IMG/VR virus record: IMGVR_UViG_3300028045_000002
Location: 1-53,509 of that record
Reading direction: 5' to 3' (one strand)
Source of the DNA: a virus
Lineage: Duplodnaviria > Caudoviricetes
Length of the DNA stretch: 53,509 nucleotides
Shown: piece by piece, positions 3,101 through 37,200 of the stretch
Position numbering within the stretch: the stretch's first letter is position 1
Layout: the number at the start of each line of letters is the position of its first letter
Notes under the pieces: generated by a model
The model's input: only the letters and a program-made list of their open reading frames with translations
What the model was told of the DNA's origin: nothing
Database searches by the model: none
Translations under genes and position numbers: made by a program

Positions 3101-4554
3101 CGCCTTGCGATGTACCTGACAAACCCCTGCTGCCACTGGACGGCACAGGTTCTATTGTTTGGCGATGGAAACTCATCAATTGGATTGGAAGTATCTGCGG
3201 CTTCAAGCAGCCGGATATCACTCAAGTCTATGTCGTAATAATCAAGCCTATCGGTTCCACCCGTTACGCCACCGGCTCCATCAGCTTCTCTGGTGATGAG
3301 AGGTATCGTCATATGGGCTCGCCAGCTATTGGCCCCATCATACAGATCGAAATATCGCCAAACTAACCCAATAACCTCATCGGCAGCATTGACCCCAAGT
3401 TGTGGCGACATCCTTCTGTCCCACCCGTTTATTCCTCCACGGTGAGTGATCTGGATTGGCAACGTGTCAGTTCCAGAGCCAGTATATGTCAAGCCGAGCA
3501 AGTTTCCTGCTGGGCTTTTTGCGGTGACCCCCATAAGGTCATCCCAAGTCGGATACCCAGCCCCTTCAACCCAACCAGCGTCTTCGTATTGAAACGAGAA
3601 AACTGGAACATGGGAAGCCCTAGGCCTGTGAGAACCGTAAGAGAATGACGACCTTGGGATTGGAGGTAAGCCGCCATCCCCGCCAACCCCGTCAACGTCT
3701 GTCGGCGGCTCCCACTCTTCGGGATCGTACCCGTGACCACCACCCGTTCCATACCACTGGAATGCGTCAGGGTGATTTCTTGCTGAATCAAGATTTATGG
3801 GTTCAAAGCCACCCGGAAAGCCACGAGCCGGGAAAGTCCCGCCACTACGTATCCACTCAACCTCTTCGTCAACAATAACCATGTGATCATGAACAAACCA
3901 TGCAACCCCATAGGGATCGGCTCCATTAAGCCTGAAGAGCAGTCTGTTGTGAGCCTCGATTGGGGCCTCTGTGAGTGACAGGTAGTCCTCTCTAGAGTCT
4001 ACGCTGGCGGCGTTTTCTGCAGACCTGAAGTTGTAGAAGAGCCAGTCGTCTCCGAGTCTGACCTGAGTCGCTGTTAGGGTGCCGTCAACATCATCGAAAG
4101 CAGCATCTCTCACCATCAATCCATGCCGATACGTTCTAGCATCAGGGCTTGCAGCTTCCCTGTAAGCCATGACCTGCCAGAAGAACGGTGATGTCCCACC
4201 TTCAAGCGTACCGGTCATCACAGGAAAGCTCCAGCGGAACACTTCAGCGGAACCGTTGTGGCCGACAAATACGTTTGAGATCATCTGCTTGTGGAATAAC
4301 CATGAATCATCTGAATGAAGCATATTGTTGTGCCCGCCACTTGGGACACGGAGAGTTCCAGCCTCATCGTCAATGTCGAAAGCTCTGTCGCTACCAAACA
4401 GTGCATCAGGATTCAGGAACCTTGTCCTGCGAGGGACAGTGAGGTCGTAGTTCTCCCCATACCACAGCATGTCTGGGGTAATATCCATCCTGCTGGCCCT
4501 TGTAACCATCCCTTTGGACCAGTCCGGAAACTGAAAGACCTGCTTTGTGGACAT
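1..4554 (-). CDS. 5' part of a ~2056-aa tail nozzle/stabilisation-type protein with Fn3-like repeats (continues across the junction into 51766-53382)
   Basis: ATG at 4554 with CAGGAG RBS just after the stop of 4557..4925. I read the frame by hand and found no stop from 4554 to 1; it is in frame with 51766..53478. N-terminus MSTKQVFQFPDWSKGMVTRASRMDITPDMLWYGENYD; internal WDNP..RIFRG..YYYSIYAVD repeats. Absent from the ORF track because it runs off the edge. Confidence 0.9.
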   Translation of the reverse strand, partial: MSTKQVFQFPDWSKGMVTRASRMDITPDMLWYGENYDLTVPRRTRFLNPDALFGSDRAFDIDDEAGTLRVPSGGHNNMLHSDDSWLFHKQMISNVFVGHNGSAEVFRWSFPVMTGTLEGGTSPFFWQVMAYREAASPDARTYRHGLMVRDAAFDDVDGTLTATQVRLGDDWLFYNFRSAENAASVDSREDYLSLTEAPIEAHNRLLFRLNGADPYGVAWFVHDHMVIVDEEVEWIRSGGTFPARGFPGGFEPINLDSARNHPDAFQWYGTGGGHGYDPEEWEPPTDVDGVGGDGGLPPIPRSSFSYGSHRPRASHVPVFSFQYEDAGWVEGAGYPTWDDLMGVTAKSPAGNLLGLTYTGSGTDTLPIQITHRGGINGWDRRMSPQLGVNAADEVIGLVWRYFDLYDGANSWRAHMTIPLITREADGAGGVTGGTDRLDYYDIDLSDIRLLEAADTSNPIDEFPSPNNRTCAVQWQQGFVRYIARRDGLLMAPGNPFENGSTWQLDWWAYDMLATGEHAYTPAYSPTRTYSAGFPEDYSAHVLGLDFDVTSGTDLRSLDTSPTGLAAGVRFVDLATTVSRWDMAAVDIEDQPQTMLFLVTSDEPADPPNWESYLGEDSDDGNFELISSTFYSITHTTTFPKVNFNDPDNDPNWGLGGIIIRYSTSAIPATIGAGTPINEDYDPSSTHQGFIPHNGTMYQYQETSVLEGLIADTTYYFNAWLVAKDGTPSTQSFYQWKPAADLDIDTQPDDGYVSAPDVSIFHYLSMGVPGHDGVVIHRNSFPPESENDIDSVWIMFAGPLFAAGRIPVPADAGTNYVGHKQVSWADWKEATHWGIFSQERWYGDYPGDDDSGEFTDVVANPHIMLPIISTSGGEFWWGISYQDNFGNIATTGGQYTIELNDVPGACFNGSISVDDLTVFLEWDNPADEDLESIRIFRGTTGFPTYETGTEIEGSPFTGSYAAAGATSLSVIDSVPAYSTLYYYSIYAVDTAEQPSSPLQLSITSEASPAWGFTSEDIDLQHVYDWDASGNPTVSLSWTLPANDTEWADGGSGPSATRGISLHYKRSVEADFVLFLAQSEADSDDLLTSFDVNLSELLDTGGGIIYYNNVMQFKIVLENYDMWTTTGYDSPFYTIPPAPANLVAGIDGDNVNLGWVPPVSEWPYMVRIRRIIGGTPPGWNEGTHLIDISSDNSTFVDSTVPADGPYSYSVFNMTIYGDVDIFHSEPATAGVLFGSPVPTRVSAQAEEDVFLLYWSPPDSVFLEHVLIRYNTSDSEAYPIGPDDGLPLDGVDGEFTSEISYRFEDAIAGVGYYISLWAVYLIEGSRTYSERVTILVIPYGEVVAGLKRGTESGGLAAIKLRQGNAPTVVASTTLSTHWDLLHNQYAVHGEWHDLVGGGGSNIVAESDYDYTDNLATLTKQRDYDSTKKTNLFINVMLISNPDLDLVPGEVSWSTDGYVEYYVVYEYDFGDFSNPFLIFNTDVSVDNKTVVAFQAFKFTDGNNSHYMPEYAKAHFFRRMKSI

Positions 4555-13464: not shown

Positions 13465-14978
13465 TCCACCTCTACTTCTTCTTCGTAGAAGTCCTCAAAA
13501 TCATCAACACTCCCCATCGCACACTCAAGAGCATTTTCGATGCAATTGTGAAGAGCATCAAGCGTATCGTCGTTCTTGCCTTTAGGGTAGGCAAGCAGCT
13601 CAGCTTCAAGCTGACTCTGATTCTCTTTAAGGTGAACCTGATGCGCCCTGAAGTACGGCTGCATTCCAGCGATCCTAATATTCTTCGCCACCCGTGGCTT
13701 AACCTCAAAGATGGGGAAGTAGATATTCTTCCTGATCATCTCTTTGCGGGCAAAGATGGCAAGGGCCTCCTGATATGCCGTAGTCTCGACTATAAACCTG
13801 AGAGGCTTGTACCTGAACTGCATCTGGAACATTTCCTTGATAACCCGATCGGGCTCACCCCGAAACCTTAGATAGTCCCCAACGAAGAACCTACCGTCCG
13901 AAGCAACGCCAACTGGCATAATACAGTTAAAGTCTCCACGAGAAGATATCGCAGGATCTATCCCTACGAAGATATTAACAGGTATAATAGATGTTGAGCC
14001 GTCATCGTTGTTGATGAAGGCTACGGAATGCCCATCCTTTACGCCCAACCTGCCTGACCAGAACCTGAAGTCCTCCCTGAGGAACAGTTGCTCCTCTGGA
14101 TTGGAAGGCATGTTCCGGTATTCTTGGTAATACATATGGACCAGCCCACGGCGGCGATATGATTCCTTAATCGCCATGAGCTGGTCCCATGATTTGTTCT
14201 CCGGCCACAGGGGTATCTTGTTGTCGGAATCCATCTCGCAGTCATACCTTAGCGTCTTATATGTGGGGTCAGCCTCCACATCTTGAAGCCACGTATCATT
14301 GTGTATCACGGTTCCGATAGCAGTAAGAATACCATCATGGGCCAGAGAAGGCTCTACGGCTCCAGATACCCAGTCCTTGTTTCTGGAGCGGTTGTCGTGA
14401 GTGAGAGAGTTGCCCTCACTTTCAAAGTCATCAAGAATGATGTCGGTTGGGCGGGTGTGGCGGAAGATCATCCCACGGACCTTCTGCCTTGTTCCAACAG
14501 CCTTTATCCTCACTCCATTGGAAGTGACGATATCATCAGCACCCCAAGGCTCACCCTTCAGGTCACCAAAGTAATACCGGAGGCGGGCGTTCTCCTCGAT
14601 CTCCATCTTGATATCGGAGAGAAAGTTGATCGCCTGATCCTGAGACTCTGAGACGATCACGATAAAGCGAGGGTCATCATCTGGGTGTTTGGTAATGATT
14701 TTCCACATGGGATAAAAAAACGAGGTCAGCGTTGATTTTGCGTGACCTCGTGGAGCCTTGATGGCTCGCCTCTTCTTGCTATTGTCTTGCAGGAGGGCGT
14801 AGATCTCCTCGTGGAAATCAGGAATCCTGAGTTTCGCCGCTTTCGGGAACAGGGCTTTCGCCATAAACGGAATCGACTTGGCCATCCGCACTCTCATCTG
14901 AGAGCGCTTCCGGTTCTCGTCCGTCTGCTGAATCATCTGGCTGGTGTGAACTTGCTGTGCTGTCTGCAACTTCTGCAC
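13449..14978 (-). CDS. terL: Terminase large subunit (start codon uncertain)
   Basis: Walker A APRGHAKST, Walker B IILDDFE, nuclease motifs VGIDPA and DDTLDA. Confidence 0.95.
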   Translation of the reverse strand: MQKLQTAQQVHTSQMIQQTDENRKRSQMRVRMAKSIPFMAKALFPKAAKLRIPDFHEEIYALLQDNSKKRRAIKAPRGHAKSTLTSFFYPMWKIITKHPDDDPRFIVIVSESQDQAINFLSDIKMEIEENARLRYYFGDLKGEPWGADDIVTSNGVRIKAVGTRQKVRGMIFRHTRPTDIILDDFESEGNSLTHDNRSRNKDWVSGAVEPSLAHDGILTAIGTVIHNDTWLQDVEADPTYKTLRYDCEMDSDNKIPLWPENKSWDQLMAIKESYRRRGLVHMYYQEYRNMPSNPEEQLFLREDFRFWSGRLGVKDGHSVAFINNDDGSTSIIPVNIFVGIDPAISSRGDFNCIMPVGVASDGRFFVGDYLRFRGEPDRVIKEMFQMQFRYKPLRFIVETTAYQEALAIFARKEMIRKNIYFPIFEVKPRVAKNIRIAGMQPYFRAHQVHLKENQSQLEAELLAYPKGKNDDTLDALHNCIENALECAMGSVDDFEDFYEEEVEVDWMSL

Positions 14979-15798
14979 CTTCTATTAAATTCAGGTCTAT
15001 TTCCGCATCTATCTCTTTGATTTCGGCTTCGGTTATTCCTGCACCTAACATTACTACAGCCTTTTCATGCTTGCTGTCAAGCATTTGTAGTATTTTTGCT
15101 AAATTTTCTAAGGCACGAGCCCTTGTCGTCTCATTTACCCCCTCCTCGAAAAGCTCCTTGAACCCTCCGATGACATAGTCCTCGTCCACACCCTGTCTCG
15201 CAGCCAGCTCTCTGATTCTGTCTTTCACGGCTTCCTGCACATTCGCTCTTGCCACGTAGACTGCGGCCCGCTCACCAACGCCCCTCTCGTTCTTGTCCCT
15301 GCCAGAGGCCATAGCATAGGCCAGCTTCTGGTCCCAAGTCCGAGTATAGACTTCAGTGAACAGTCGCTCTCTCTTCGTGAGCTTTCTGTTCGGATCCTTC
15401 CATTGTGGGTATTTCCCGCCGAAGGATGTGCGGTTTTCCCTGACTTCTGTTGTCATCCGGACTCCGGGACTGGTAACAAATGTCCCGGTGGCAATCCTGA
15501 GCCAGTCATAACTGCTTCTGGTTCCGCCCCTTGTGAGGACTTCGACCACCATGTCATCGTCAGTTCTTGCCCAGTCCCCAATTTGGCAGGCTCTCCAAGG
15601 CTTCCACCTGAGGCCAACGTCCTCAGCTTCGCCAATAGTGTAGTAGACATGCTCTACACCATTGACCTCATGCTTAACCACCGCTGCCGTCCACAGTTGC
15701 GATCCTAGAGCCCGGAATGCTCGGGAGGTCAATTCCATCATCCACGGCCAGTATCTCGCTCTCAGAGCAAATGAGCCATTGTCCGTCCAGTTTAGCAT
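14818..15798 (-). CDS. terS: Terminase small subunit-like protein (true start probably ~15741 or 15681)
   Basis: Immediately upstream of terL; LTKRERLFTEVY..AYAMA..ARANVQEAV..RALENLAKIL TerS-type helical pattern. Confidence 0.7.
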   Translation of the reverse strand: MLNWTDNGSFALRARYWPWMMELTSRAFRALGSQLWTAAVVKHEVNGVEHVYYTIGEAEDVGLRWKPWRACQIGDWARTDDDMVVEVLTRGGTRSSYDWLRIATGTFVTSPGVRMTTEVRENRTSFGGKYPQWKDPNRKLTKRERLFTEVYTRTWDQKLAYAMASGRDKNERGVGERAAVYVARANVQEAVKDRIRELAARQGVDEDYVIGGFKELFEEGVNETTRARALENLAKILQMLDSKHEKAVVMLGAGITEAEIKEIDAEIDLNLIEGAEVADSTASSHQPDDSADGREPEALSDESADGQVDSVYGESPVPESGETQDS

Positions 15799-17780: not shown

Positions 17781-18014
17781 CTAATCCTCCTCTACGAGTT
17801 GCCAGTCAAATGCCAGCAAATCGGTTTGAGATGCCACCCAAGGGACCAGAAGGGCCTCCTTGGTGGAAATATAAATGTAAGGGAGAGTTATCTTTGTGCC
17901 TTTTGATGGGAACTGCATCCGGATGAACTGACCGAGACCATTCCAGCCTACCCGATAGACCTTCCTGCCGCTCCAAAGCTCTTGCAGCGCCCACCCAAAT
18001 CCCTGAGCTTCCAT
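17781..18014 (-). CDS. DUF2829 / Thoeris anti-defence Tad2-like protein, 77 aa
   Basis: FGWALQEL..GRKVYRVGWNG..PYIYI..VPWVASQTDLLAFDW matches the DUF2829 signature; ATG 18014 with GAGAGG RBS. Confidence 0.85.
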   Translation of the reverse strand: MEAQGFGWALQELWSGRKVYRVGWNGLGQFIRMQFPSKGTKITLPYIYISTKEALLVPWVASQTDLLAFDWQLVEED

Positions 18015-18071
18015 TCCAACCTCTCTCGATTGAGTTGCTACACATATATGCACTAACGTGGTTATGTGTCA

Positions 18072-18170: not shown

Positions 18171-18365
18171 TCAGGAGTCAAGCTCTTTTGCTGCTGAGGG
18201 CAGCTGAGCCATAAGCGTGTAGTCTTCCGCCTTATCGGAGAGATAGTCTCTCTGGAGCAGGCAGAGGACCACTGCTTTCTTTTCTGGTCGTAGATCTTTG
18301 AATGGAACACCGTAAGAGGACTCTGAGATGCCGTTGACTAAGCTTTTGGCTATCTCCAGCGTCAT
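18171..18365 (-). CDS. Hypothetical protein, 64 aa
   Basis: GAGGAG RBS; ATGA overlap with the upstream ORF. Confidence 0.65.
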   Translation of the reverse strand: MTLEIAKSLVNGISESSYGVPFKDLRPEKKAVVLCLLQRDYLSDKAEDYTLMAQLPSAAKELDS

Positions 18366-18553
18366 TGTGGCTCCTCCCCATCGAAGAGGACCAATTGAAC
18401 CAAGCCCTCAGCCTCTCCCGGCTGATCGGACTCAATCACCACAATCCGATCCTTCACGCCCTCCCTCAAGTAGTTCTCAAGCTCCCGAACCGCCCCCCCA
18501 ATACCACGCAATTCCCGTAACAACAACAACTGGAACTCTGTCAGAGAAGACAT
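18362..18553 (-). CDS. Hypothetical protein, 63 aa; first gene of the leftward arm
   Basis: ATG 18553 preceded by AAGGAGG; ORF-track upstream extension discarded. Confidence 0.7.
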   Translation of the reverse strand: MSSLTEFQLLLLRELRGIGGAVRELENYLREGVKDRIVVIESDQPGEAEGLVQLVLFDGEEPQ

Positions 18554-19692
18554 GAAACCTCCTTGAAGGGAAGACCTCAACTCTACCACAGCATCAACAT
18601 TGGTACTACTACCAAATAAAAAGAAAGAAAAGACAAAGAAAAGCTTGTACACCTGCAACTCTACGTGATAGCTTGACACGTGTGGTAGGATGGAGGATGG
18701 GTGGTTGGGACGTTCCTACAACTTCTTCTCTCATATTTCCAACAAATACATAGCTCTGTTGCAACTATCAAAAGCTTCCAACCTGATACAGGAGGAGCAG
18801 CAACAGAAGACACCAGCTCGAAACTGGATCCACTACATACAACTCTGGCCAGAGCCTGAGATGCTTCCCCGCTTTTCAAAACAACTCGTACTTTCCTGTA
18901 GGGTGTTATACCTACGGACCCGCCCCCTCCGAATCAGGGCCTACCGGTCCCCGATTCAAATGAACTGACTCAGCAGCGCAGGAACGCTGCTGATTCAGCT
19001 CCTTTGACTCGCTGACCGCTTGCCTGATTAAGCTGATTAGAAGCTAATCACCCTAATCATGCAAGTGCTCCTTGCAAGTTGGAGGACCAACTAGCAAGCA
19101 GCAGCGCCACGCACCAAGCTACAGTAGAGTTGATGCAACTCTACTGTAGCTTGTTGCTTAGGCTGGCCCGGAGGCATCGGACCCAAAGAGCAGCGGACGC
19201 TGCGGAACCCCTAAGAGGGCCGGAGCCCGATCAGTCTCCAGCAACGAGCCAGCGAAGCTGACACGCCGCTTCAGCCTGATCTGCTGACCACGAGCGTGGG
19301 AACGCTCGCTACTCAGACTCTTCAGTCGTGAGGACACGCCTTGCAGAGTCAGAGTTCAGCATCTCAGTCTTCAGTCGGTCGTTCCTCGTTCCTGAATCCT
19401 GATCGGGCGGAACAGAAGCATCAGCGTGAGGACACGAAGCTGATGCTTCTGGCCAAGAGGCCCCGGAGCGGATCCCTTCCCACCCTAGCTCAAGCTGCGA
19501 AGCGCAGCGTGAGCATTGCCCCATAATGGAATCTGCAAGCAAGAGAGCCTAAGACCCCCCAAGAAGCGGCAAGCAGCCACCGAGAACGGTGGTGTTGGGT
19601 TATTTTTGGGGTTATTCGAAGGTTTGTGCCTTCGTCTAGTGGGGTTAAGGGTGGAGGGTGGCAATGCCGCTACCCCCACACAGGAGGCTCTC
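18554..19692. promoter_or_regulatory. Divergent non-coding control region with a dense hairpin array
   Basis: No credible ORF; gene orientation flips here; more than 12 stem-loops, repeated CAACTCTAC motifs and an A-rich tract (18615-18642). Confidence 0.75.
19115..19153. repeat. Perfect 18-bp inverted repeat with a 3-nt spacer
   Basis: CAAGCTACAGTAGAGTTG-ATG-CAACTCTACTGTAGCTTG. Confidence 0.95.
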
Positions 19693-20094
19693 ATGCTTAC
19701 ATCTTCCATTATTTCCGCCATCCGCTCCACGACCTTGGCCATCACCGACAACTTCGGTGGCGTTGTCGCTGGGCCGCTGGCCAGCATCATCCAAGCCATC
19801 GAGGACGATGACTTGGCTGGGCTGGCGGAGCCCGTCCAGCAGGCGCTCGTGCGCCTTGCTGTCCGGACTGCCGAGCCGAAAGGCGAGCTGGCGCTCGCCC
19901 TCGCCGCCGAAAACAACGGCAAAGCCGTTGCATTCGGGACGAGTGGCTACCTTTTCCGTCCCGATTGGGACGAAAAGGTCGCCGACGAACTGAGCGCAGC
20001 GCTCAGCTTCGTCAAGGCTCGGCTGACCGCATCTGAGACTGCTGCCATGGGCAGCCGCCTCGATGCGGCCATCGCCGCCGCTGATGCTGCGTAG
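19693..20094 (+). CDS. First early gene, Ala-rich hypothetical protein, 133 aa
   Basis: CAGGAGG RBS, ATG 19693, strong C/G third-position bias, followed by a terminator. Confidence 0.8.
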   Translation: MLTSSIISAIRSTTLAITDNFGGVVAGPLASIIQAIEDDDLAGLAEPVQQALVRLAVRTAEPKGELALALAAENNGKAVAFGTSGYLFRPDWDEKVADELSAALSFVKARLTASETAAMGSRLDAAIAAADAA

Positions 20095-20104
20095 CGCATC
20101 AGCT

Positions 20105-20140
20105 GAAGCTACCCCGCCTAAGGGCGGGGTAGCTTCTTTC
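20105..20140 (+). terminator. Rho-independent terminator
   Basis: 14-bp stem GAAGCTACCCCGCC-TAAG-GGCGGGGTAGCTTC then TTT. Confidence 0.75.
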
Positions 20141-20281
20141 AATGAGCAGCTTCGCTGCTTGTTGATAGGACGCTGCGCCGCAGCGTCCACCACCACCACT
20201 ACCACTACCACTACCATCAGACCCCTCGCCCGCTTGCTGCGGGCGAAGAACCTGACGACAAGTGCAATAAGGAGGCGTAGC

Positions 20282-20371
20282 ATGAACTTGATTCTAAGCG
20301 CAGGACTCCTCATTGGAGGCTTTGGAATATTTATGGCAGCCCTGATAAGGGCAAAGGAACGAGCCGAGTGA
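20282..20371 (+). CDS. 29-aa single-TM peptide MNLILSAGLLIGGFGIFMAALIRAKERAE
   Basis: Perfect TAAGGAGG RBS 6 nt before the ATG; hydrophobic helix plus charged tail. Confidence 0.6.
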   Translation: MNLILSAGLLIGGFGIFMAALIRAKERAE

Positions 20372-20584
20372 TATCGGCACTGGCGAGAGCTGGCAAACCA
20401 CTCGTCAAATGAAGGGGTCATCAACCCTGCACAACAGCGATGCTGCTGGCACTGATGGCGGAGCGGATAGTTCTCGCTACGATGCCATCTATCTGCTATT
20501 CAACCAGCATGACAATCATAGCCTCCCGATGCCGGGGGGCTATGATTCCTTAAACAAGTGCAATCAACCTATTTAGGAGAATAA

Positions 20585-20995
20585 ATGAACGATTTAAATG
20601 AACTTCTTTGGGCCATGAAGGATGGAAAGCTTTCTGATTTCATGGAAATGCCTTCCGATTTTGAGTCTTGGGTGAAAGTAGGGCCGTATCCGACTCTGAA
20701 TATTCTGATGAAGTGGGTGGCCAGTCAGGAAATGATGAAGATTATTCCTCCGGACATGACATGTGTCGTATATCTGGAGATATTCTTCAGCAGCATGGCA
20801 GCGCTGCTCTTTCTGTCGAAAGAGGACGAGTCGCTGGATGAGGCCAGTAACAAGGATCTCCTCAAGGAGATGGAGCAGATGAGACTGCGGTGTCTCCTTC
20901 TCTTCAGGAAGGCCCTCAATCACGCTGAGAAGACATCCGGGATGCCCACGGAGAAAGAGTTGCTTGAAGGGTTGGTGGCCGCACAGGCCAAATAG
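20585..20995 (+). CDS. Hypothetical early protein
   Basis: TAGGAG RBS; 136 aa. Confidence 0.75.
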   Translation: MNDLNELLWAMKDGKLSDFMEMPSDFESWVKVGPYPTLNILMKWVASQEMMKIIPPDMTCVVYLEIFFSSMAALLFLSKEDESLDEASNKDLLKEMEQMRLRCLLLFRKALNHAEKTSGMPTEKELLEGLVAAQAK

Positions 20996-26873: not shown

Positions 26874-27119
26874 ATGGAAGACGAAAGACTGCCAGTAGCC
26901 TTTCTAGAAATCAGGCTTCTCGACCAAAAGGGAGAATCACTGATGAAGAAGAAGTTTAGATCAAGAAGGGGCGTAACATATGTCTCTAGGGCTGGAGCTT
27001 TAGCCACGCTGAATGACTCAACACGATGGCTTATCTCTAGATTTAGAGAGATACGAGATGCCGAAGAAGTAGAAGCTTACGCTCTTGAAAACCAAGCGGA
27101 CCTTTTCAATGGAGATTGA
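26874..27119 (+). CDS. Hypothetical protein
   Basis: GGGAGG RBS. Confidence 0.65.
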   Translation: MEDERLPVAFLEIRLLDQKGESLMKKKFRSRRGVTYVSRAGALATLNDSTRWLISRFREIRDAEEVEAYALENQADLFNGD

Positions 27120-27447
27120 AAACAACTTGGCAAAGATCTATGATGAAGTCATGGGTCTTTTAGAACAAGGAGCGTCAGTAGCGTGTGTTCTGGTGCCAGT
27201 CTCTTTAAGCACCAGCAACAAGGGAGCCATTGCAAAATTTGCAGGGTTTCCAGCAAGACTCGCAGATAATGCGGGGGCAATAGTATTGCTTAAAAACCAT
27301 GAGTTCAATAATAAGATCAGGGATCTGAGTCTACAGACCGGCAAATCAGAATCTGAGTTGAAGGAGTTTTACGCCGATCCCAATACTCGGAGAGTGAAAG
27401 CTGTTTTCTTTGATCTTAACGGGGGGACCAATGACAAGAGCGATTAG
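27109..27447 (+). CDS. Hypothetical protein, 112 aa
   Basis: ATG 27109 overlaps the upstream stop region. Confidence 0.6.
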   Translation: MEIENNLAKIYDEVMGLLEQGASVACVLVPVSLSTSNKGAIAKFAGFPARLADNAGAIVLLKNHEFNNKIRDLSLQTGKSESELKEFYADPNTRRVKAVFFDLNGGTNDKSD

Positions 27448-27868
27448 AGGAATGCTGCCTATGGCAGAGCTGGAATTCAGGATAGACTGGTTGAAAAAGT
27501 TGAAGGGTGCTAATCTCAACAAAGGCATGCTTTCCAATGATCTTTGGGACATGGCCTGTAAAGAAACAGCAATCTATCCCAAGAGGTCTTGGAAGGCCGT
27601 TCAAAGGCAAGCTGCCAATAGGTGTGACTTCAGGATTTCTGGAATCAGAAAGCCACGCCTCAAAGATCCGAAACATCCTCATCATACCAAAGCAGTAAAA
27701 CGAGAGAATGGCGCTAGATCCATTGTGACAGCCCTGAAGCTGTGCGGAGTGGATCTGGAGGGATCCATCAAGCAGATCAAGTGGAAGGATCAGGGAGGCG
27801 CTGAACTCGTTACGGGGGATGGTAGAACCATCCTCATCTCTACGAGGGATTGGTGGTTGAAGGATTAA
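27431..27868 (+). CDS. Basic hypothetical protein, possibly DNA-binding
   Basis: GGGGGG RBS-like, ATG 27431; PKRSWKAVQRQA resembles an HTH recognition helix. Confidence 0.6.
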   Translation: MTRAIRGMLPMAELEFRIDWLKKLKGANLNKGMLSNDLWDMACKETAIYPKRSWKAVQRQAANRCDFRISGIRKPRLKDPKHPHHTKAVKRENGARSIVTALKLCGVDLEGSIKQIKWKDQGGAELVTGDGRTILISTRDWWLKD

Positions 27869-31289: not shown

Positions 31290-34200
31290 TCAATTCAAAG
31301 GATTGGCAAGACCGAACAAGAGCTTGGCAACTTCCTTTTTATCCTTGGCATCACGCAAGCCCTGAACTTTCTTCATGCCAGCATAGTCAGGACTGATGAG
31401 CATCTGCTTCAGAGCCTCAGCCTGTTGCCCCCTAGCAATCATCGGCAATGTCCTGAAAGCGTACCTCGACCCAGCCGAAGAGAACTTCTCTGCAAGCTTC
31501 CTCTCCTTCTCCTCAAGCGGAGTGTCCGCCCAAATCTTTGAACCAAAGAAGAACTGAGAAAGCCTGCTATCATTCTGGAGCTTATGGAAGCCCATCCATG
31601 CCATGATGTCCATCATATCACTGATAGCTGGACCACTCAGCTGCGAAGCAACTGGACGCTTATAGAAGGCCCTCTTGCGCTTCTCTTCATCATCAGAGAC
31701 AAAGTCTGCCATTCCCTGCACAATCGATATGGCTGTAGGCTCAAACCATCCACCCATATCAGCATTAAGAACACCTGAGACTACCTGAAGGAATGGAATC
31801 AATGCACCTAGCCTGATCATCCATGCAGCCTCAGGGACAACACCCTGACCAGCAAAGTGCTGACTATCACCAGAGAGACCGGCCTCTTCCCTGTACTCAG
31901 TCTTCTGCTCAGGTGTCATCTTTCGGGTAGCCTTGAAAGCTTTGTACTCATCCTTGGTTCTTCTGGCAAGCTCATTGCCACTCTCTGCCATATAGGTTCC
32001 AAAGATCACATCAAACAGCCTGAACTGGAAGATGAATCTACCCCAATTTGTACGGAACCACTCCGGTCTACCAGCTGTAGAGTAGTCTCCGTTTATGAAG
32101 ATCCTCGCATCATGGGCAATGTCGATCGCTTTTTTCTCAAGGAAGCCCTGATACTTTTTCTTCCAGTACCTGTCCGCAGGTTCAAGCGACCCCGGAGAAC
32201 CGCCAGTCTCTCCGTGCCACAAGTCCAGCTCCCTTTCGTGAACACCAAACCTTTGAAGATAGGCAAACCTATCGAACTGTTCCCCATTGCGGGAAGCGGC
32301 CAATTCACGAGCGGCCACGGTCTCGGGAAGATGCTCAAAGGCGGAACGAATCTCCTCATTTTCTCCAATTGACGACCTCGCTTGACTGAAGGCTGTCGAG
32401 AATGCCCACTTATGCAGACTCATTTCACTCATTGCAAGCATTCGAAGAGCTTGGCTCTTATCCACAAATGTGTCCATGCTCTTTATAAGCTTCTCTGTCC
32501 AATGGCGAGGCCTGACCCCTTGGAACAGCCCATCAAAGATAGAGTCTTCCTTGTGGAGCAAATAGGGAGCCGTAGACGGATCCCAATCAAGAGCCTCTGA
32601 ATGGAGGATGCGCTTACCCTCCTCAGTCTCCATCCATGCCTTACCCGCCATCATTGCAGACCAGCCAACCTTGGTGCCATGCATCAAAGCCTGAGTGCTG
32701 TTCTGGACGATAGTCTTGAGATTATACCCAATCTTTGCGAAGGCCTGCCAAGCCAAGATGGCGTTGGCGATATGTCTGCGTCTCTCCCCTTTTTCATCCA
32801 ATGAGTGAAAGAGGGAGTCTCTACGGTGGCGCTCAAAGAATTCACCGATAGTTGTAACAGCCTTGAGCCACTCTTTGCGCTTGGCAAACTCTCCACCAAC
32901 GTGGCCATTCAGGACACGCTTGGAGTTGTGGACCCAGTTCAAAACTCGTTCGTAATTGTGATTCATTCTGGAAACATAAGCCGCACTCTGAACCTGAGCC
33001 CCATAGGTCTCGATGCTCATGGTTGCTGACGGAGAAAACCTCCAGCTGAATTCACCCTCCATGCTTCTCGGAACACCAACACGACTCCTGATGGCTCCCA
33101 TTGGCGGGGCAATGTAGGGGGTGCCTTGATACTGGCCATACTCCTCATAATACTTGTCAGCATACTCCAAGAAGGTCGGCGGCTTCTTAAGGCTCCGATC
33201 ACGAGCGAATATGTGCTCCTGTTTTGCTGTCCACTGGCCCATGAGCCTCTCAAAGTCTGACAGCCTGCCAGTAACATCACCAACCAGCGTCTTATCACGC
33301 CAAGCCTCCTTGGCCAGCGAGCTGGTGTACACCGCACCGGGACGAACCCTGTGCATGTAGCCAACAGAGATGTTGCTTGCCCGAAGCTGCGGCATGTACT
33401 TTTCAATGAACTCGGTGATTTCCTTTTCGGACACACCAACATGCCTGAGCCTGTAACGAGTGTAGGCCACGTTGTGAGCGTGAGAGTCTTGCACTATCGG
33501 CCAAAGCTTTTCGTGCATCTCCGCAACTTCAACTGAGAGCTTCTCAAGCTTGCTCGCTGTATCAGCACCGAATGTATCGGTGATCTCCTTTATCGTCTGG
33601 GCCCTCTCAACCTTTGCCTCACGAGCAATAGCCTCGTCGATAGTCCCCTGCATTTCTCTGGCTTTGCCGTGAGCGACATCAACCAAGTCCTTGTCAACCA
33701 CGATGATTTCGGGTCTGTCCCCATCCTTTCGGCTGACAGAGATCCTGTAGGTATCCTTGCTTGCCTCCCCAAGGAGCTGACCTGAATAGATGCTCTCTCC
33801 ATCTCGATCAACAAAGATGACTCTGCTATGCTTCGGGAGCCTGTGGTGAACAGGGCTTGCATCAATCCCGAGCCGCTTAAGAGCCCTGAGCCTTGCCTTC
33901 TTGTCCCTGCCAAACAGCTCATCACGCACGACTGAGCCAGAGCCGGAGAGCCTCCCAAGGAACGTGTCAAGGGCTACGGCTGCAACTCCACCAGCCTCAG
34001 CGCTGGTGATGACCTCCTCAAGCTCAGTTATCCTTTCCCTGAGCTTCAAGTACCTATTCCACACATCTCGACTGGCAGGTATCTCTGGATTCTGCCCCTT
34101 CTGTAGCTGCTTGTAAGCCGTCCTGACCCTGTTGGGGGCATCGTGTGGCAACACCTTGCCTTCAACCTGACTCATCACCTGATTGCGCTGATTGACAGGA

Positions 34201-37200
34201 ATGTGGTCCATCTCTGTATCATACTCAATCGTGTGAGCGGCTCGCTCAAGGTCAGCGTGCTCGGCAACCAGCTTCTTATGCTTGGTATGTTGTGCCATAG
34301 CACTAAGGCCCCTGATGGCAATCTTGGGACGCTGGAAGATGTTGCCCTTGGTATTCAAGATGCCGTCAAAGATATCGTAGATATGCTTCTGGACATCTGC
34401 GACAACTTTGGCTGCGTTTCTTTTTTGAGCTGAAGCCCTGATCCAGTCCTTGTACCATCTCTTAAGGATGGGAACACGGTTAACGAATGACCTTGGTAGC
34501 AGGGTCTTCTCAAGGAACAAGTTGACTCCACCCTTACCCATTCTCCCCAGTGACTTCTCAAGGTTGTATCGAGCATCACGCAGATTCTTCCATGTCGGAA
34601 CATCAAGACCGGCTGTATAGCCACCAATGTCAGAGATCATCTTCATGGCTTCTTCGACCCTTGCGCCATGGTCAAAGTACATGTCCTTGATTACCCCACC
34701 AAGGATCGGATGGTCCAGAATCTCTTCCGCAAGCTTACGCTCAGATTCATGAAGCTTGACCAGCTTCTTGTTTGAGATCTCCCCAGAGTGATAGAAGGTT
34801 TCAGCGGGCTGCGCTCCAGTGTCCTCAATGATGACAGCCTGAGACACCTTCCTGTTTGGTCTCTGTAGTCCACGCTCAAGCTCCTTGCGAAGCTCTGCGC
34901 TCTGGATTTCAAGGTCCAACCTGAAGAGCCTGTCTGACCGGTAGTTCGTGTCCAGCGTTGACTGAGTAAGCATCTTGTTGAAGGCTGGCACATTGTAGTC
35001 TTCGGCATAGTAGACCTGCCCATCATAGGCAGTGTTGGCGATAGCCCTGAGCGGGGAATTCTCTGGAGCAATGGCACGAAGAGCGCTCTTGGAGACATAC
35101 TTGACTCGGCCATCAGCAGTGTAGAAGATGGCCGTATCTTTAAGCTCAAGCCCCTTAAGATCCTTACCAACATTCGCCTGCATCATCTTGCCAATTTTAA
35201 CGGCAGCAGCCTTGGCTCCACGGGGCTCATAGATGGCGGCATCAGGAGAGCGCATAGGCATTGCAACGCCTACCCACTTAGTGCCATTGTGGACCAATCT
35301 TGGAACCTTACCCCACCTGCCAGCCTTACCCTGCTTACCCAGCGGGCCAACAGCGCCATTATGAAGCTGAAGCAGGATGTGCATGATGGTGTCATACGAT
35401 GTCGCATTCGGTATCGTCACCCCACGCCTTGTTCCGAGAGCAGTGTGTATTGCCCCTCTTGCTTTTTCAGAGTGGAGCTTGCCAATATATGCCTCGGGGT
35501 TGTACAGCCTGTCTATTGCCTTTGCAATCCCATACTGCAAATCAACCTGAGTCAGTCCCTTGAACTCCCACGCCTTGCCGACCTTTGTCGGTGTGATGTG
35601 AGAGAACTGGTGATTCTCAGCAAGGTTCCTCGATGTAGTCCTCATCACGCCATTGTTGGTGTAGCCACGAAGCATGGTGCCAAGATCGTTCACCATCATG
35701 GAGTTCTTTGAGACGTTATCCCAAAGCGTCTCCTCTACTCGCTCAAGCACCTTGATGGAGTCTTTGTTCTCCTTTGTCTTTTCAGGCACTATGGAAGAAG
35801 CATTGCTGATATGGTCATTGGCCAAGTATCTGGAGAACAGCTCTTGAGTGTAGACTCTGTGCATTCCTCCGGTAATCTTTGGAGTCAGCGAAGTCTCCTC
35901 AGCCCTAGTAACAAGCTCTTTCCTGTAGTTGTCGATGACCTCTGATGGCAAGCCCTCCTTTTCCATGCGGCGGATCTCTGGCAACCCGCTCGTGATCACA
36001 GAAAAGTAGCTGTCAATGTTGGCGGGATTCATGGAGTAGAGATCACTGAACAGGCTGCCAGCTGTGGCGACCATCTTGTGAGTCAGCGTTCCGTTGTTAA
36101 CGGTGAGTCTTCCCTTGGCATCAGCCCCAAAGCTTAGTGGCCGCTTCATATCAAGATTGCTACCACCATCAACGATATTCTTCAGGGTGTTAAAAGCCTC
36201 TATCTTTGCCACAATGCCAACCTCTTTTGCGTTGGCTCTATCAGGCTGAATGACTCTATTTATGTCACCAAGACCCCTTGAGAAGTCCTTTCTCGTGGCT
36301 TGAATTGCGGTACTTGCAGCCTCGCCAGCATCCTTTTCTCCAGTCTTGAGGCCGTGTGCCGGAAGCACCATCTCCCAAAGAGTCTTGTACCAGCCGGGAG
36401 TAACCTCACCCTTGGCCCCATGCCATGCTGGCTTGAGCTTCATCTTCTTGCCATCGGTATAGGCTTTGGAATTGAGGAACATGTACTCAAGGAGTGAGAG
36501 CTCTTTTTTTGTCCCGTCAGGCATCTCCACTTTGGTAGTAAGCCAGTGATCAACCTCTTTGCCAGTAGATGAGTAGCTGCCAGCCTTGACTGGGAGAATC
36601 TCTCCGTCAACAGCTGCCTCAAAATCTTTGCCTCCGGGCTCAAGTTTGCTGATCTTGAATTTCCCAGCTTTGATTTTTATTGGAGCACTAGAAACAGTTC
36701 TGGTTTCCCCGGCAAGTCCATCGACAGAGCTTTCTTGACCTTCCAAGGTCTCCACCTTGCCACGCTTTAAGGCCGCTTCAAATGTGGCTTTATCTATTTC
36801 GACAACAGTTGGAGTGGACTCGCCCTCAATATTTTCGGAGACGTCAAAAGTCTCTGGCTCTGATTCTCGCATTGCCTTAGCATCTCGAGCCTTGCCATTG
36901 AATCGTGTAATAGCATACTCACGAGCTTGACTCAGGTCGCCAGTAACTGAAGTGCCAACACCCTTACCGGGGAATCTGCGGCTGAACATGTCATCCTTGG
37001 CCGCAGGCAGAATGAGATTACCTTCAGCATCTACTTTGAATGCGCCAGACTGCCCCCTGTAAACCCTATCCTTTCTCTGGGTTGCTCCGCCCCAATCAGA
37101 GTCGGTAGTTCCGTAATACTCTTCCCTGGTCCCGCCTTCTTTGGCATCCGGAAGCTTTATCTTGGCTGGCTTCTTACCACTGATGACATCGAGGAAGTCT

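What the first reader, a model, noticed from the sequence alone, without database searches (positions are those of the whole stretch)
18960..19640. Array of >12 hairpins with strand-biased GGA/GAA purine loops upstream of the first early gene
Seen on +, with loops: 18965-18998 (CAGGAA), 19034-19050 (AAG), 19077-19092 (AGGA), 19190-19203 (GA/GGAC), 19217-19228 (CGGA), 19250-19260 (GAA), 19291-19308 (GGGA), CGTG-AGGA-CACG twice (19327-19338; 19425-19436, nested in a 13-bp stem 19413-19451), 19494-19508 (contains GCGAAGC), 19577-19592 (AGAA). Known: CsrB/RsmZ sRNAs present repeated (A)GGA in hairpin loops to titrate CsrA/RsmA; C-GNA-G DNA mini-hairpins are very stable and form N4 virion-RNAP promoters. 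Inference: either a phage-encoded CsrA-sponge-like RNA made first on infection, or an ssDNA hairpin landing pad for the virion RNAP at the first-injected end. Either would be notable next to a two-barrel vRNAP.
Basis: partly seen in the sequence, partly recalled or inferred. Interest (0 to 1): 0.85.

Follow-up and report, generated by a model that had tools for sequence, protein, structure and literature searches.

The report
Hairpin-packed leader before phage early gene
An uncultured marine phage carries an unusually long gene-free stretch folded into about fifteen hairpins just ahead of its first early gene; it most likely acts as a folded RNA leader that keeps that gene's start locked, and it is probably neither a CsrA decoy nor a set of N4-type hairpin promoters.

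Summary
All eleven listed hairpins are at the stated coordinates. The 681 nt fold far better than dinucleotide shuffles (RNA z -9.2 on +, -13.8 on -; DNA z -11.6 and -19.6). The block 18876-20325 is the most structured part of the 53.5-kb genome.

Loops are purine-rich on the + strand only (50 of 68 nt). GGA sits in loops more often than chance (6 of 15 GGA in 4.9% of slots, P=5e-5).

The array lies in 1139 nt with no coding signal (18554-19692), between leftward and rightward gene modules.

Two new results point to + strand RNA:
- A promoter-like block shared with 16 distant relatives occurs once in the genome, at 18889-18911 (+), 34 nt before the array.
- Leader 19523-19550 pairs 24 of 28 with the ribosome site, AUG and first codons of the first ORF (0 of 1000 shuffles reach it).

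Best reading (0.5): a ~790-nt structured 5' leader that locks translation of the first early gene.

A CsrA sponge (~0.1) and N4-type hairpin promoters (~0.05) are poorly supported. There is no Rfam match, no shared promoter consensus, and the virion RNA polymerase is unverified.

No RNA data and no close relatives could be reached. Earlier notes of this scan describe similar hairpin-chain early RNAs in other phages.

The parts
18872..18912 (+). Promoter-like block shared with distant relatives: A/T tract 18872-18881, -10-like TACTTT 18889-18894, then 8 nt, then GTGTTATAC 18903-18911. The putative start of the rightward transcript is about 18900-18920.
   Evidence: The composite pattern taken from the relatives hits the window once, here, on + (expected 0.07 per genome). 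It is exact, single and early-sense in 16 of 82 loci. Spacing is collinear with the relatives' alignment. The sigma-70 scan does not call it and the nhmmer profile does not find it, so its role as a promoter is inferred.
18945..19018 (+). Hairpin 1: 34-nt imperfect arms, inner 9-bp stem 18970-18993, loop CAGGAA.
   Evidence: (I1)
19014..19070 (+). Hairpin 2: 27-nt imperfect arms, inner 7-bp stem 19034-19050, loop AAG.
   Evidence: (I2)
19066..19103 (+). Hairpin 3: inner 6-bp stem 19077-19092, loop AGGA.
19111..19157 (.). Perfect 18-bp palindrome (22-nt arms at 95%), loop ATG. Both arms carry CAACTCTAC, the same 9-mer as at 18578 and 18656. It may double as a protein-binding site on DNA.
   Evidence: (I3)
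19190..19228 (+). Two short hairpins: loop GGAC (19190-19203) and loop CGGA (19217-19228).
19225..19408 (+). Multi-branch domain closed by a 24-nt long-range helix (19225-19248 with 19385-19408). It holds hairpins with loops GAA (19250-19260), GGGA (19291-19308) and AGGA (19327-19338).
   Evidence: I4; MFE and centroid
19413..19451 (+). Perfect 13-bp stem enclosing the second CGTG-AGGA-CACG hairpin. It is a paralogue of the 19311-19352 module: same inner 12-mer, different outer stems that both pair.
   Evidence: (D5, I7)
19488..19514 (+). Hairpin with a 6-bp core, 19494-19508, loop AAG.
19523..19550 (+). Anti-start segment of the leader. It is complementary, 24 of 28, to the translation start region of the first ORF.
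   Evidence: score 36 against null mean 15.9, sd 2.1, max 27 (0 of 1000 shuffles); 11 other + strand genes score 12-18. The helix is present in the MFE and the centroid.
19557..19634 (+). Two hairpins enclosed by the lock helix: 19557-19612 (core 19577-19592, loop AGAA, T-rich 3' arm) and 19617-19634 (loop TTGT).
19685..19712 (+). Translation start region of the first ORF (end of the AGGAGG ribosome site, AUG at 19693-19695, first 6 codons). It is sequestered by 19523-19550.
19693..20094 (+). First rightward ORF, 133 aa, GC-rich and itself very hairpin-rich. It has no relatives.
   Evidence: Coding score 0.199, against 0.234 +/- 0.062 for the training genes; GC at codon positions 1/2/3 is 0.67/0.51/0.73. 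In 1.84 billion representatives it finds only itself and one weak hit. No Pfam or PHROG match. Eight perfect hairpins of at least 6 bp.
20105..20136 (+). Perfect 14-bp GC-rich hairpin followed by TTTC. It is a terminator-like end of the first transcription unit and is followed by more hairpins up to 20250.
   Evidence: (I3). The terminator scan does not call it.

Best explanation
The array is the body of a very long (about 790 nt), untranslated, heavily base-paired 5' leader of the rightward (+ strand, presumed early) transcript.

Transcription would start just after a promoter-like block at 18872-18912 that this phage shares with distant relatives. It would run through about 15 hairpins and reach the first ORF at 19693.

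The last domain of the leader contains a 28-nt segment (19523-19550) that pairs with the end of the ribosome-binding site, the AUG and the first six codons. As folded, the RNA therefore keeps the first early gene translationally locked.

The lock would be opened by something that remodels or cuts the leader. Candidates are RNase III-type cleavage of the long helices, or a factor that binds the purine/GGA loops.

The dense pairing would also shield a long untranslated RNA from Rho and RNases.

Shown here: the hairpin excess, the loop bias, the absence of coding signal, the unique motif match, and the anti-start complementarity.

Inferred: that the motif is a promoter, the start site, that the + strand RNA is the active molecule, and the identity of the unlocking factor.
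For: 1. All ORFs inside 18554-19692 score negative for coding, while the ORF at 19693 scores like real genes.
2. The pattern TANNNT-N8-GTGATATAC, derived only from relatives, matches the window once in both strands with at most 1 mismatch. The match is at 18889-18911 on +, 34 nt before the array (expected 0.07). In the relatives it is exact in 16 of 82 loci, always single and always in early-gene sense. There it lies 250-430 nt from the first late-side gene, as here (336 nt).
3. Relatives have leaders of 145-460 nt after this block. Here it is about 790 nt, so what is expanded is the leader.
4. The anti-start helix 19523-19550 with 19685-19712 pairs 24 of 28. None of 1000 shuffles reach it, and 11 control genes score far lower. 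It is present in the MFE and the centroid (z -8.8).
5. On +, unpaired bases are A-rich and G-poor and hairpin loops are 74-82% purine, as in structured RNAs.
6. Nested long-range helices such as 19225-19408 fit a folded single strand better than protein sites on duplex DNA.
7. Two pairs of paralogous modules keep the inner hairpin and loop but have different outer stems that still pair: CGTGAGGACACG twice, and AGCG-YRGGAA-CGCT twice.
8. A 14-bp hairpin follows the ORF on +.
Against: - No transcript evidence: no RNA run holds the stretch.
- The - strand folds better than the + strand: RNA z -13.8 against -9.2, DNA z -19.6 against -11.6, and 14 against 6 G-U pairs.
- A profile of the relatives' leader finds nothing in the window. 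Local alignments are no better than shuffles. The motif match therefore rests on a 12-position pattern plus spacing.
- The sigma-70 scan calls no promoter in 18300-20300, nor at the motif in two relatives.
- The anti-start pairing is not a family trait: 4 of 21 relatives at p<=0.03.
- RNAalifold found no consensus structure in the relatives' leaders.
- The excess structure continues into the ORF and beyond, which a pure leader model does not require.
- No covariation test was possible for the array itself, because no close relative was reachable.
Confidence: 0.5

Rival explanations
1. Trans-acting protein sponge. The early RNA presents GGA loops that titrate a host CsrA/RsmA-type (or other GGA-binding) RNA-binding protein at the onset of infection. 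This role could be in addition to the cis role.
For: - Seven GGA-loop hairpins on +, 1 on -.
- GGA is enriched in loops beyond loop composition (P=3.5e-4).
- The CGTG-AGGA-CACG and AGCG-YRGGAA-CGCT inner hairpins are kept while their outer stems differ. That suggests sequence-specific recognition of the loops.
- One loop, CAGGAA, resembles the CsrB repeat CAGGA(U/A/C)G (PMC7652899).
Against: - No Rfam Csr/Rsm match, even at E<=10.
- About one GGA loop per 100 nt, against 22 GGA in CsrB.
- AGGA and ANGGA are not enriched overall.
- Three sites are AGGA tetraloops on stable stems, whereas high-affinity ligands are mostly hexaloops on stems of 4 bp or fewer.
- GAA loops are as common as GGA loops.
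- The host is unknown and the phage encodes no CsrA-like protein.
- Relatives' leaders have no GGA or purine bias.
Confidence: 0.1
2. DNA-level control region. The palindromes and repeated 9-mers would be operators, a replication origin or a packaging site acting on duplex or transiently single-stranded DNA. The hairpin excess would be a by-product of many inverted repeats.
For: - CAACTCTAC occurs exactly 4 times in the genome, all within 18578-19144, two of them as arms of a perfect 18-bp palindrome.
- An A-rich polypurine tract lies at 18615-18642.
- The region is the strand and GC-skew switch point.
- No replication initiator, polymerase or primase was recognised among the proteins scanned.
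- Both strands fold about equally well or better on -.
Against: - Most arms are long and imperfect (72-95% complementary) and nested. That suits folded single strands rather than dimeric protein sites or cruciforms.
- Loop composition is strongly strand-asymmetric.
- There are no DnaA boxes in 18500-20600.
- The array is GC-rich (58-62%), not AT-rich.
- The 9-mer repeats lie mostly left of the array.
- The skew switch coincides with the change of transcription direction, so it is not independent evidence.
Confidence: 0.15
3. N4-type single-stranded DNA hairpin promoters, or a landing pad for a virion RNA polymerase at the first-injected end.
For: - Short GC-rich stems with 3-4-nt purine loops, including C-GAA-G at 19250-19260.
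- The gene order (leftward structural module, rightward small early module) resembles N4 when circularised (N4 map recalled).
- The 4530-aa ORF has one DTDGD motif.
Against: - N4 promoters share a conserved -17..+1 block with fixed -11, -10, -8 and +1 bases, and there are only three of them (PMC4496689). Here the hairpins share no common block apart from one 12-mer duplicate.
- The hairpins abut one another at about 45-nt spacing.
- GCGAAGC is enriched genome-wide (13 against 6.6), not locally.
- The giant protein has no Pfam, PDB or PHROG polymerase match and no detectable relatives.
- The physical ends are unknown. The 127-nt terminal overlap may be an assembly overlap (my inference).
Confidence: 0.05
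4. The active molecule is the - strand RNA. This would be a leftward transcript whose hairpins carry UCC(U/C) loops, which could pair with GGA in ribosome-binding sites, like the C-rich loop sRNAs of Gram-positive bacteria (that comparison is recalled).
For: - The - strand folds more stably relative to shuffles, with both RNA and DNA parameters.
- It forms more G-U pairs, 14 against 6.
- Its loops read UCCU three times, plus UCCC and GUCC.
- Phage genes here use AGGAGG-type ribosome sites.
Against: - The shared promoter-like block points rightward and lies left of the array. A leftward promoter placed back-to-back with it, as in relatives, would not transcribe the array.
- On the - strand the unpaired bases would be U/G-rich, which I take to be atypical of structured RNAs (recalled).
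- The anti-start helix has a functional meaning only on +.
- No leftward promoter or terminator was found flanking the array.
Confidence: 0.08
5. No dedicated function. The block would be a GC-rich acquired segment whose hairpins reflect its origin or duplication history.
For: - The block 19100-20250 is 58-66% GC in a 51% GC genome.
- It contains an ORF without relatives.
- Several hairpins look like duplicates of one another.
- Distant relatives lack an array of this size.
Against: - The z-scores are computed against dinucleotide-preserving shuffles, so composition alone does not explain them.
- Loop bias, GGA placement and the anti-start helix are each individually significant.
- Identical sequence is found in contigs of four laid runs from four studies.
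Confidence: 0.07

Closest known systems
Bacteriophage lambda pL-N leader (nutL boxB hairpin plus an RNase III-sensitive structure controlling N translation). Mechanism recalled; I saw only the title of Wilson et al. 2002, EMBO J 21:4154, in the reference list of PMC7315355. The paper itself is not held.
   Same: An untranslated structured leader between the first early promoter and the first early gene. It has small hairpins with purine-rich loops and long helices that affect access to the gene's start.
   Different: The lambda leader is about 220 nt (recalled) with one boxB. Here the leader is about 790 nt with about 15 hairpins. No boxA/boxB consensus, N-like protein or RNase III dependence was shown. 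Loops are 3-6 nt and of GGA/GAA type, not GAAAA pentaloops (recalled).
CsrB / CsrC / RsmX-Y-Z protein-sponge sRNAs
   Same: Many hairpins of differing stem sequence that present GGA in their loops on one strand.
   Different: - No covariance-model match.
- Several-fold lower GGA density.
- Mostly AGGA tetraloops on long stems rather than A(N)GGA penta- or hexaloops on short stems.
- Part of an mRNA leader, not a discrete sRNA.
- Host CsrA unknown.
CsrA-repressed mRNA leaders with several GGA sites, one overlapping the ribosome site. I saw rpoE, with three sites, in PMC7652899. glgC and pgaA are recalled.
   Same: GGA-loop hairpins in a 5' leader upstream of a GGA-containing ribosome site.
   Different: Much longer and far more structured. 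Here the start is already sequestered by RNA-RNA pairing. Binding is untested.
N4 virion RNA polymerase hairpin promoters P1-P3
   Same: Short GC-rich inverted repeats with purine loops near the head of the early region.
   Different: There is no shared -17..+1 consensus. There are about 15 abutting hairpins rather than 3 spaced promoters. The polymerase is unverified.
Large structured phage-associated RNAs (GOLLD, ROOL and the like), and the 'early hairpin-chain RNA' noted earlier by this scan in a jumbo phage (e1-5647394, unchecked AI note)
   Same: A noncoding, highly folded phage RNA several hundred nt long that matches no small-RNA family.
   Different: No Rfam family matches. This one is physically and structurally coupled to the downstream ORF. 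It is not known to be conserved.

Membership tests
CsrB/Rsm-type CsrA sponge RNA | Match to a curated Csr/Rsm covariance model | tested here: not met
   Rfam 15 returned no match at gathering score for the whole window. At E<=10 on 18500-19900 no Csr/Rsm family appeared, only generic miRNA-like hairpin hits.
CsrB/Rsm-type CsrA sponge RNA | Many GGA motifs placed in hairpin loops or single-stranded stretches | tested here: met
   Six of 15 GGA lie in MFE loops (P=4.7e-5). Seven GGA-loop hairpins on +, 1 on -.
CsrB/Rsm-type CsrA sponge RNA | High site density and CAGGA(U/A/C)G or A(N)GGA consensus, mostly hexaloops on short stems (PMC7652899) | tested here: not met
   There is about one GGA loop per 100 nt. 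One of 7 loops is CAGGAA, 3 are AGGA tetraloops, and the others are GGAC, CGGA and GGGA. Stems are 4-13 bp. AGGA (4 against 3.8) and ANGGA (1 against 2.3) are not enriched.
CsrB/Rsm-type CsrA sponge RNA | Discrete small RNA with its own promoter and terminator | tested here: inconclusive
   A promoter-like block lies upstream. No terminator lies between the array and the ORF, and the array pairs with the ORF's start. That favours a leader.
CsrB/Rsm-type CsrA sponge RNA | Host encodes CsrA/RsmA, and the RNA binds it | not testable with these tools
   Host unknown. The genome-collection scan with the terminase alignment gave only distant MAG hits.
N4-type virion-RNAP hairpin promoters | Conserved -17..+1 sequence shared by all promoters, with a GC-rich heptamer centred at -11 flanked by inverted repeats (PMC4496689) | tested here: not met
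   The repeat search finds only one 12-nt duplicate and short partial repeats among the hairpins. GCGAAGC occurs twice in the array but 13 times genome-wide.
N4-type virion-RNAP hairpin promoters | Phage encodes a virion RNA polymerase | tested here: inconclusive
   For the 4530-aa ORF:
- No Pfam match.
- One 46-aa match to a PHROG of unknown function.
- No PDB sequence match below E 0.1.
- No word-sharing relatives.
- No match in 5 relatives' genomes.
- Atlas scores of 0.76 or lower.
- One DTDGD motif at residue 2458.
No structure was predicted.
N4-type virion-RNAP hairpin promoters | Located at the first-injected genome end | not testable with these tools
   Only assembled contigs of public runs were available, and they are identical to the window. 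The 127-nt terminal overlap says nothing about the ends.
Cis-acting structured 5' leader with start-site sequestration | Non-coding stretch between a promoter and the first ORF of the operon | tested here: inconclusive
   The stretch is non-coding. The promoter is inferred from a unique match to a motif shared with relatives. A sigma-70 consensus scan does not call it.
Cis-acting structured 5' leader with start-site sequestration | Leader segment complementary to the ribosome site and start codon, beyond chance | tested here: met
   24 of 28 paired. Score 36 against a null maximum of 27 in 1000 shuffles. Eleven control genes score 12-18. The helix is in the MFE and the centroid.
Cis-acting structured 5' leader with start-site sequestration | Transcript of the right strand and extent exists | not testable with these tools
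   No RNA run holds the stretch. This blank is not evidence either way.
Lambda-type nut (boxA/boxB) or HK022 put antitermination RNA | BoxB-like 5-bp stem with a GNRA-like purine pentaloop next to boxA, or the two-stem put fold (features recalled) | not tested
   No model was available beyond Rfam, which gave no match. Loops here are 3-6 nt, and only GGGA fits GNRA.

The most novel reading that the evidence does not exclude
The first RNA this phage makes is a roughly 0.8-1.2-kb hairpin chain with two jobs. In cis it locks the first early gene. In trans its GGA and purine loops act as a decoy for a host RNA-binding regulator or RNA-sensing defence protein. It is transcribed divergently from a Tad2-like anti-Thoeris gene, so the divergent region would be an anti-host control hub. 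This would be a phage-encoded protein-sponge RNA that grew by hairpin duplication from the short structured leader found in related marine phages.
Probability: 0.12. Interest if true: 0.8.

Novelty: new variant of a known kind. Interest (0 to 1): 0.5.

Why it matters
Long structured leaders that gate the first early gene are known from a few model phages. This one is about four times longer, 72% base-paired, and has loops biased to GGA and purines. It sits in a phage whose wider terminase family has many members in ocean metagenome sources, some labelled Tara.

If the reading holds, it gives three testable handles on how an uncultured marine phage times its first gene: a conserved early promoter block, an RNA lock on the start codon, and a set of candidate protein-binding loops. 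It also shows how such a leader can expand by duplicating hairpins.

Separately, the promoter-like block with GTTGAA motifs shared by at least 16 relatives is a usable marker for the early control region of that phage family.

If it proved to be a trans-acting decoy, it would be a phage-encoded sponge for a host RNA-binding protein. One search of the held library for a phage-encoded CsrA sponge listed 15 of 90 papers, none of which describes one by title or abstract.

Tried and rejected
- Rfam: no family matched at gathering score or at E<=10. ARAGORN found no tRNA.
- Phage database: no DNA match. A structural protein gave no match. TerL is at most 29% identical to any cultured phage.
- Single-protein scans of IMG/VR with TerL and the AAA_24 protein found nothing. 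The alignment-based scan found only 34-42% identical TerL relatives. No close relative was reached, so no covariation test of the array was possible.
- Sequencing runs: no RNA holder was listed. Four DNA runs gave contigs identical to the window, with no variants and no end information.
- Relatives' divergent gaps:
  - All 7 fold better than shuffles (z -2.3 to -13.8, only 12 shuffles).
  - In 150-nt scans of 3 loci the gaps are only modestly more structured than their surroundings (about -2 against -0.7 to -1.2; 8 shuffles).
  - They show no purine or GGA loop bias.
  - The large array is therefore not a family trait.
- Homology of the window's leader to the relatives' leader: the nhmmer profile gave no hit and Smith-Waterman was no better than shuffles. 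RNAalifold gave no consensus structure for the relatives' leaders.
- Anti-start pairing in relatives: 4 of 21 at p<=0.03. Three of the 24 loci were dropped, two because no ORF was found and one because the leader was too short.
- There are no DnaA boxes in the region.
- ACAAGTGCAAT-like sites are not above chance when 1 mismatch is allowed.
- Giant protein as polymerase: searches were all blank or weak. I ran no further search on it.
- Host search in genome contigs gave 4 distant MAG hits at 24-37% identity.
- Earlier-findings look-alike search gave nothing.
- Literature: one search for a phage-encoded CsrA sponge listed 15 of 90 papers, none describing one by title or abstract. In the top hit I read only the passages on GGA, sponge and RsmA, which concern host RsmY/Z. 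Supplementary files were not consulted.
Full report
**What the window is.** The window is a whole IMG/VR viral contig of 53,509 bp with a 127-nt terminal overlap.

It encodes a P22-like portal, an SU10-like capsid protein and a terminase on the - strand. It also encodes a Sak4-like AAA_24 ATPase, DUF669 and DUF932 proteins on the + strand, and a 4530-aa ORF.

The - strand module runs leftward from about 18553, round the circle, to 30350. The + strand module runs from 19693 to about 30284. The finding therefore lies in the divergent region between the two modules.

No cultured phage is close: there is no DNA match, and TerL is at most 29% identical. TerL homologues are numerous in ocean metagenome sources, many on contigs of about 52-56 kb.

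**The observation.** There are more, including a perfect 18-bp palindrome at 19115-19153.

- The 681 nt fold to -312 kcal/mol on + (z -9.2) and -358 on - (z -13.8), against 100 dinucleotide shuffles.
- With DNA parameters the z-scores are -11.6 and -19.6.
- 72% of bases are paired in the + strand MFE.
- In a scan of all 712 windows of 150 nt, the 18 windows between 18876 and 20325 average z -4.3/-5.1, against -0.44/-0.57 elsewhere. They take 8 of the top 10 places.

The structured block is thus larger than reported. It continues through the first ORF and a cluster of hairpins to about 20250.

**The loops.**

- On the + strand 50 of 68 hairpin-loop bases are purines, against 51% in the region (P=1.3e-4).
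- Six of 15 GGA lie wholly in loops, which offer 4.9% of the trinucleotide slots (P=4.7e-5).
- Permuting the loop letters among the loops gives 1.4 GGA loops on average, against 6 observed (P=3.5e-4).
- Seven GGA-loop hairpins with stems of at least 4 bp lie on + and one on -. The genome background is 0.66 per 696 nt.

Against a GGA-specific story:

- AGGA and ANGGA are not enriched overall, and total GGA only mildly.
- GAA loops are as common as GGA loops.
- One coding window at 27100-27795 also reaches seven, with weak stems.
- Hairpins inside and after the ORF do not share the purine bias, apart from one AGGA loop at 19797-19810.

**Coding.** A codon-usage score trained on 16 long ORFs gives 0.199 for 19693-20094. 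Training chunks average 0.234 +/- 0.062, and the ORF's GC at codon positions 1/2/3 is 0.67/0.51/0.73. Every ORF inside 18554-19692 scores negative.

The 133-aa product finds only itself and one weak hit in 1.84 billion representatives, and has no Pfam or PHROG match. So 1139 nt are non-coding, and the first rightward gene is probably real but has no relatives.

**Relatives.** No close relative could be reached. IMG/VR holds only 34-42% identical ones, with 35-44% GC.

Seven of these relatives whose gene order I mapped have the same divergent layout, with a 250-630-nt gap.

- Their gaps fold better than shuffles.
- They are only modestly more structured than their surroundings.
- They have no purine or GGA loop bias.

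The large array is therefore specific to this lineage.

**A shared promoter-like block.** In early-gene sense, the relatives' gaps share four elements in order: an A/T tract, a -10-like TAGAAT, 8 nt, then GTGATATAC(A). These are followed by hairpins carrying GTTGAA.

- The pattern TANNNT-N8-GTGATATAC is exact, single and early-sense in 16 of 82 loci.
- With at most one mismatch it occurs once in the whole window, at 18889-18911 on +. That is 34 nt before the array, and the chance expectation is 0.07 per genome.
- Its distance from the first leftward gene (336 nt) matches the relatives (about 250-430 nt).
- Three weak local alignments fall in the same order and spacing as in the relatives' alignment.

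Against:

- A profile of the relatives' leader finds nothing here.
- Alignment scores do not exceed shuffles.
- The sigma-70 scan calls no promoter here or at the motif in two relatives.

I take the block as a probable early promoter or leader start. That is an inference.

In the relatives the first early ORF follows after 145-460 nt. Here it follows after about 790 nt. What has grown is the leader.

**A lock on the first gene.** Folding 18901-19760 as RNA gives z -8.8. The fold places 19523-19550 against 19685-19712, in both the MFE and the centroid.

- The two segments pair at 24 of 28 positions. They cover the end of the AGGAGG site, the AUG at 19693 and six codons.
- The alignment score is 36, against a null mean of 15.9, sd 2.1 and maximum 27 in 1000 shuffles.
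- Eleven other + strand genes score 12-18 against their own upstream 770 nt.
- This pairing has a functional meaning only on the + strand RNA.
- It is not a family trait (4 of 21 relatives at p<=0.03).

**Which strand.**

For +:
- the direction of the promoter-like block;
- the lock;
- A-rich, G-poor unpaired bases and purine loops;
- a 14-bp hairpin after the ORF.

For -:
- better folding z-scores with both parameter sets;
- more G-U pairs.

I weigh + as more likely, but it is not shown.

**Internal evidence for selection on structure.** Two module pairs keep an inner hairpin and its loop while their outer stems differ in sequence and still pair:

- CGTG-AGGA-CACG at 19327 and 19425.
- AGCG-YRGGAA-CGCT at 18975 and 19293.

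This also suggests growth by duplication of hairpins.

**Comparison with known systems.**

CsrB/Rsm sponges share the GGA-in-loop idea but differ on these points:
- They fail the model match.
- The density does not fit.
- The loop and stem form does not fit (criteria from passages of PMC7652899).

N4 virion-polymerase promoters need a conserved -17..+1 block (passages of PMC4496689). That block is absent here. The neighbouring 'virion polymerase' is unverified.

The closest functional analogue I know is the lambda pL-N leader, where a structured, RNase III-sensitive leader controls N translation. That mechanism is recalled. I saw only the paper's title in a reference list, and the paper itself is not held.

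DNA-level roles remain possible for part of the region. CAACTCTAC occurs exactly four times in the genome, all in 18578-19144.

**Verdict.**

An early structured RNA is likely, a CsrA sponge is possible but weak, and an N4-type landing pad is unlikely.
- Best reading (0.5): a long structured 5' leader that locks the first early gene and probably needs a factor or a nuclease to open it.
- It is a new variant of a known kind.
- Interest is moderate (0.5). The anatomy is striking and testable, but there are no transcript data, no host and no covariation.
- Earlier notes of this scan describe similar hairpin-chain early RNAs and GGA-loop hairpins in other phages. Those notes are unchecked here.

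Noticed in passing
window 17781-18053 (-): A 90-aa ORF matches the Tad2-like anti-Thoeris domain (PF11195, E 3.3e-20). It lies about 500 nt left of the divergent region, among small leftward genes. The first leftward genes may therefore be early anti-defence genes.
   Followed up: partly
window 18578-19144: CAACTCTAC occurs exactly four times in the genome, all here: 18578, 18656, and both arms of the 19115-19153 palindrome. An A-rich polypurine tract at 18615-18642 lies between the first two. These could be operator or origin-like sites.
   Followed up: partly
loci L007, L010, L019, L020, L025, L030, L032, L034, L042, L045, L048, L049, L057, L064, L070, L082 (early-sense strand of each divergent gap): Distant relatives share an invariant block: A/T tract, TAGAAT, 8 nt, GTGATATAC. 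It is followed by an invariant GTTGAA and a variable GTTGAA-like stretch upstream of it, and flanked by CCCCA/TGGGG. It looks like a conserved early promoter plus a structured leader. RNAalifold found no consensus fold.
   Followed up: partly
window 19693-20250: The first rightward ORF has no relatives, is 63-66% GC in a 51% GC genome, and holds eight perfect hairpins of at least 6 bp. It is followed by four more GC-rich hairpins and a run of ACC/ACT triplets at about 20189-20216.
   Followed up: partly
window 20258-20268 and 20554-20564: An identical ACAAGTGCAAT follows a GC-rich hairpin and precedes a ribosome site, before two consecutive + strand ORFs. It is exact only at these two places. 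With one mismatch allowed the count is not above chance.
   Followed up: partly
window 19388-19403 and 4405-4420: A 16-nt exact repeat in inverted orientation. One copy is the 3' arm of the 19225-19408 long-range helix. The other lies about 140 nt inside the 5' end of the leftward ORF that starts at 4554. About 0.05 such matches are expected by chance (my estimate).
   Followed up: no
window 14701-15000: This is the strongest local structure outside the main block (z -7.4/-6.1). It lies where the small- and large-terminase ORFs overlap.
   Followed up: no
window 31290-44882 (-): A 4530-aa ORF takes up a quarter of the genome. It has no Pfam or PDB sequence match, no detectable relatives, and a single DTDGD motif at residue 2458. 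The claim that it is a two-barrel RNA polymerase stays untested.
   Followed up: partly
window, whole: GCGAAGC, the stable DNA mini-hairpin heptamer, occurs 13 times against 6.6 expected (0 of 100 shuffles reach 13). The copies are spread over the genome.
   Followed up: no
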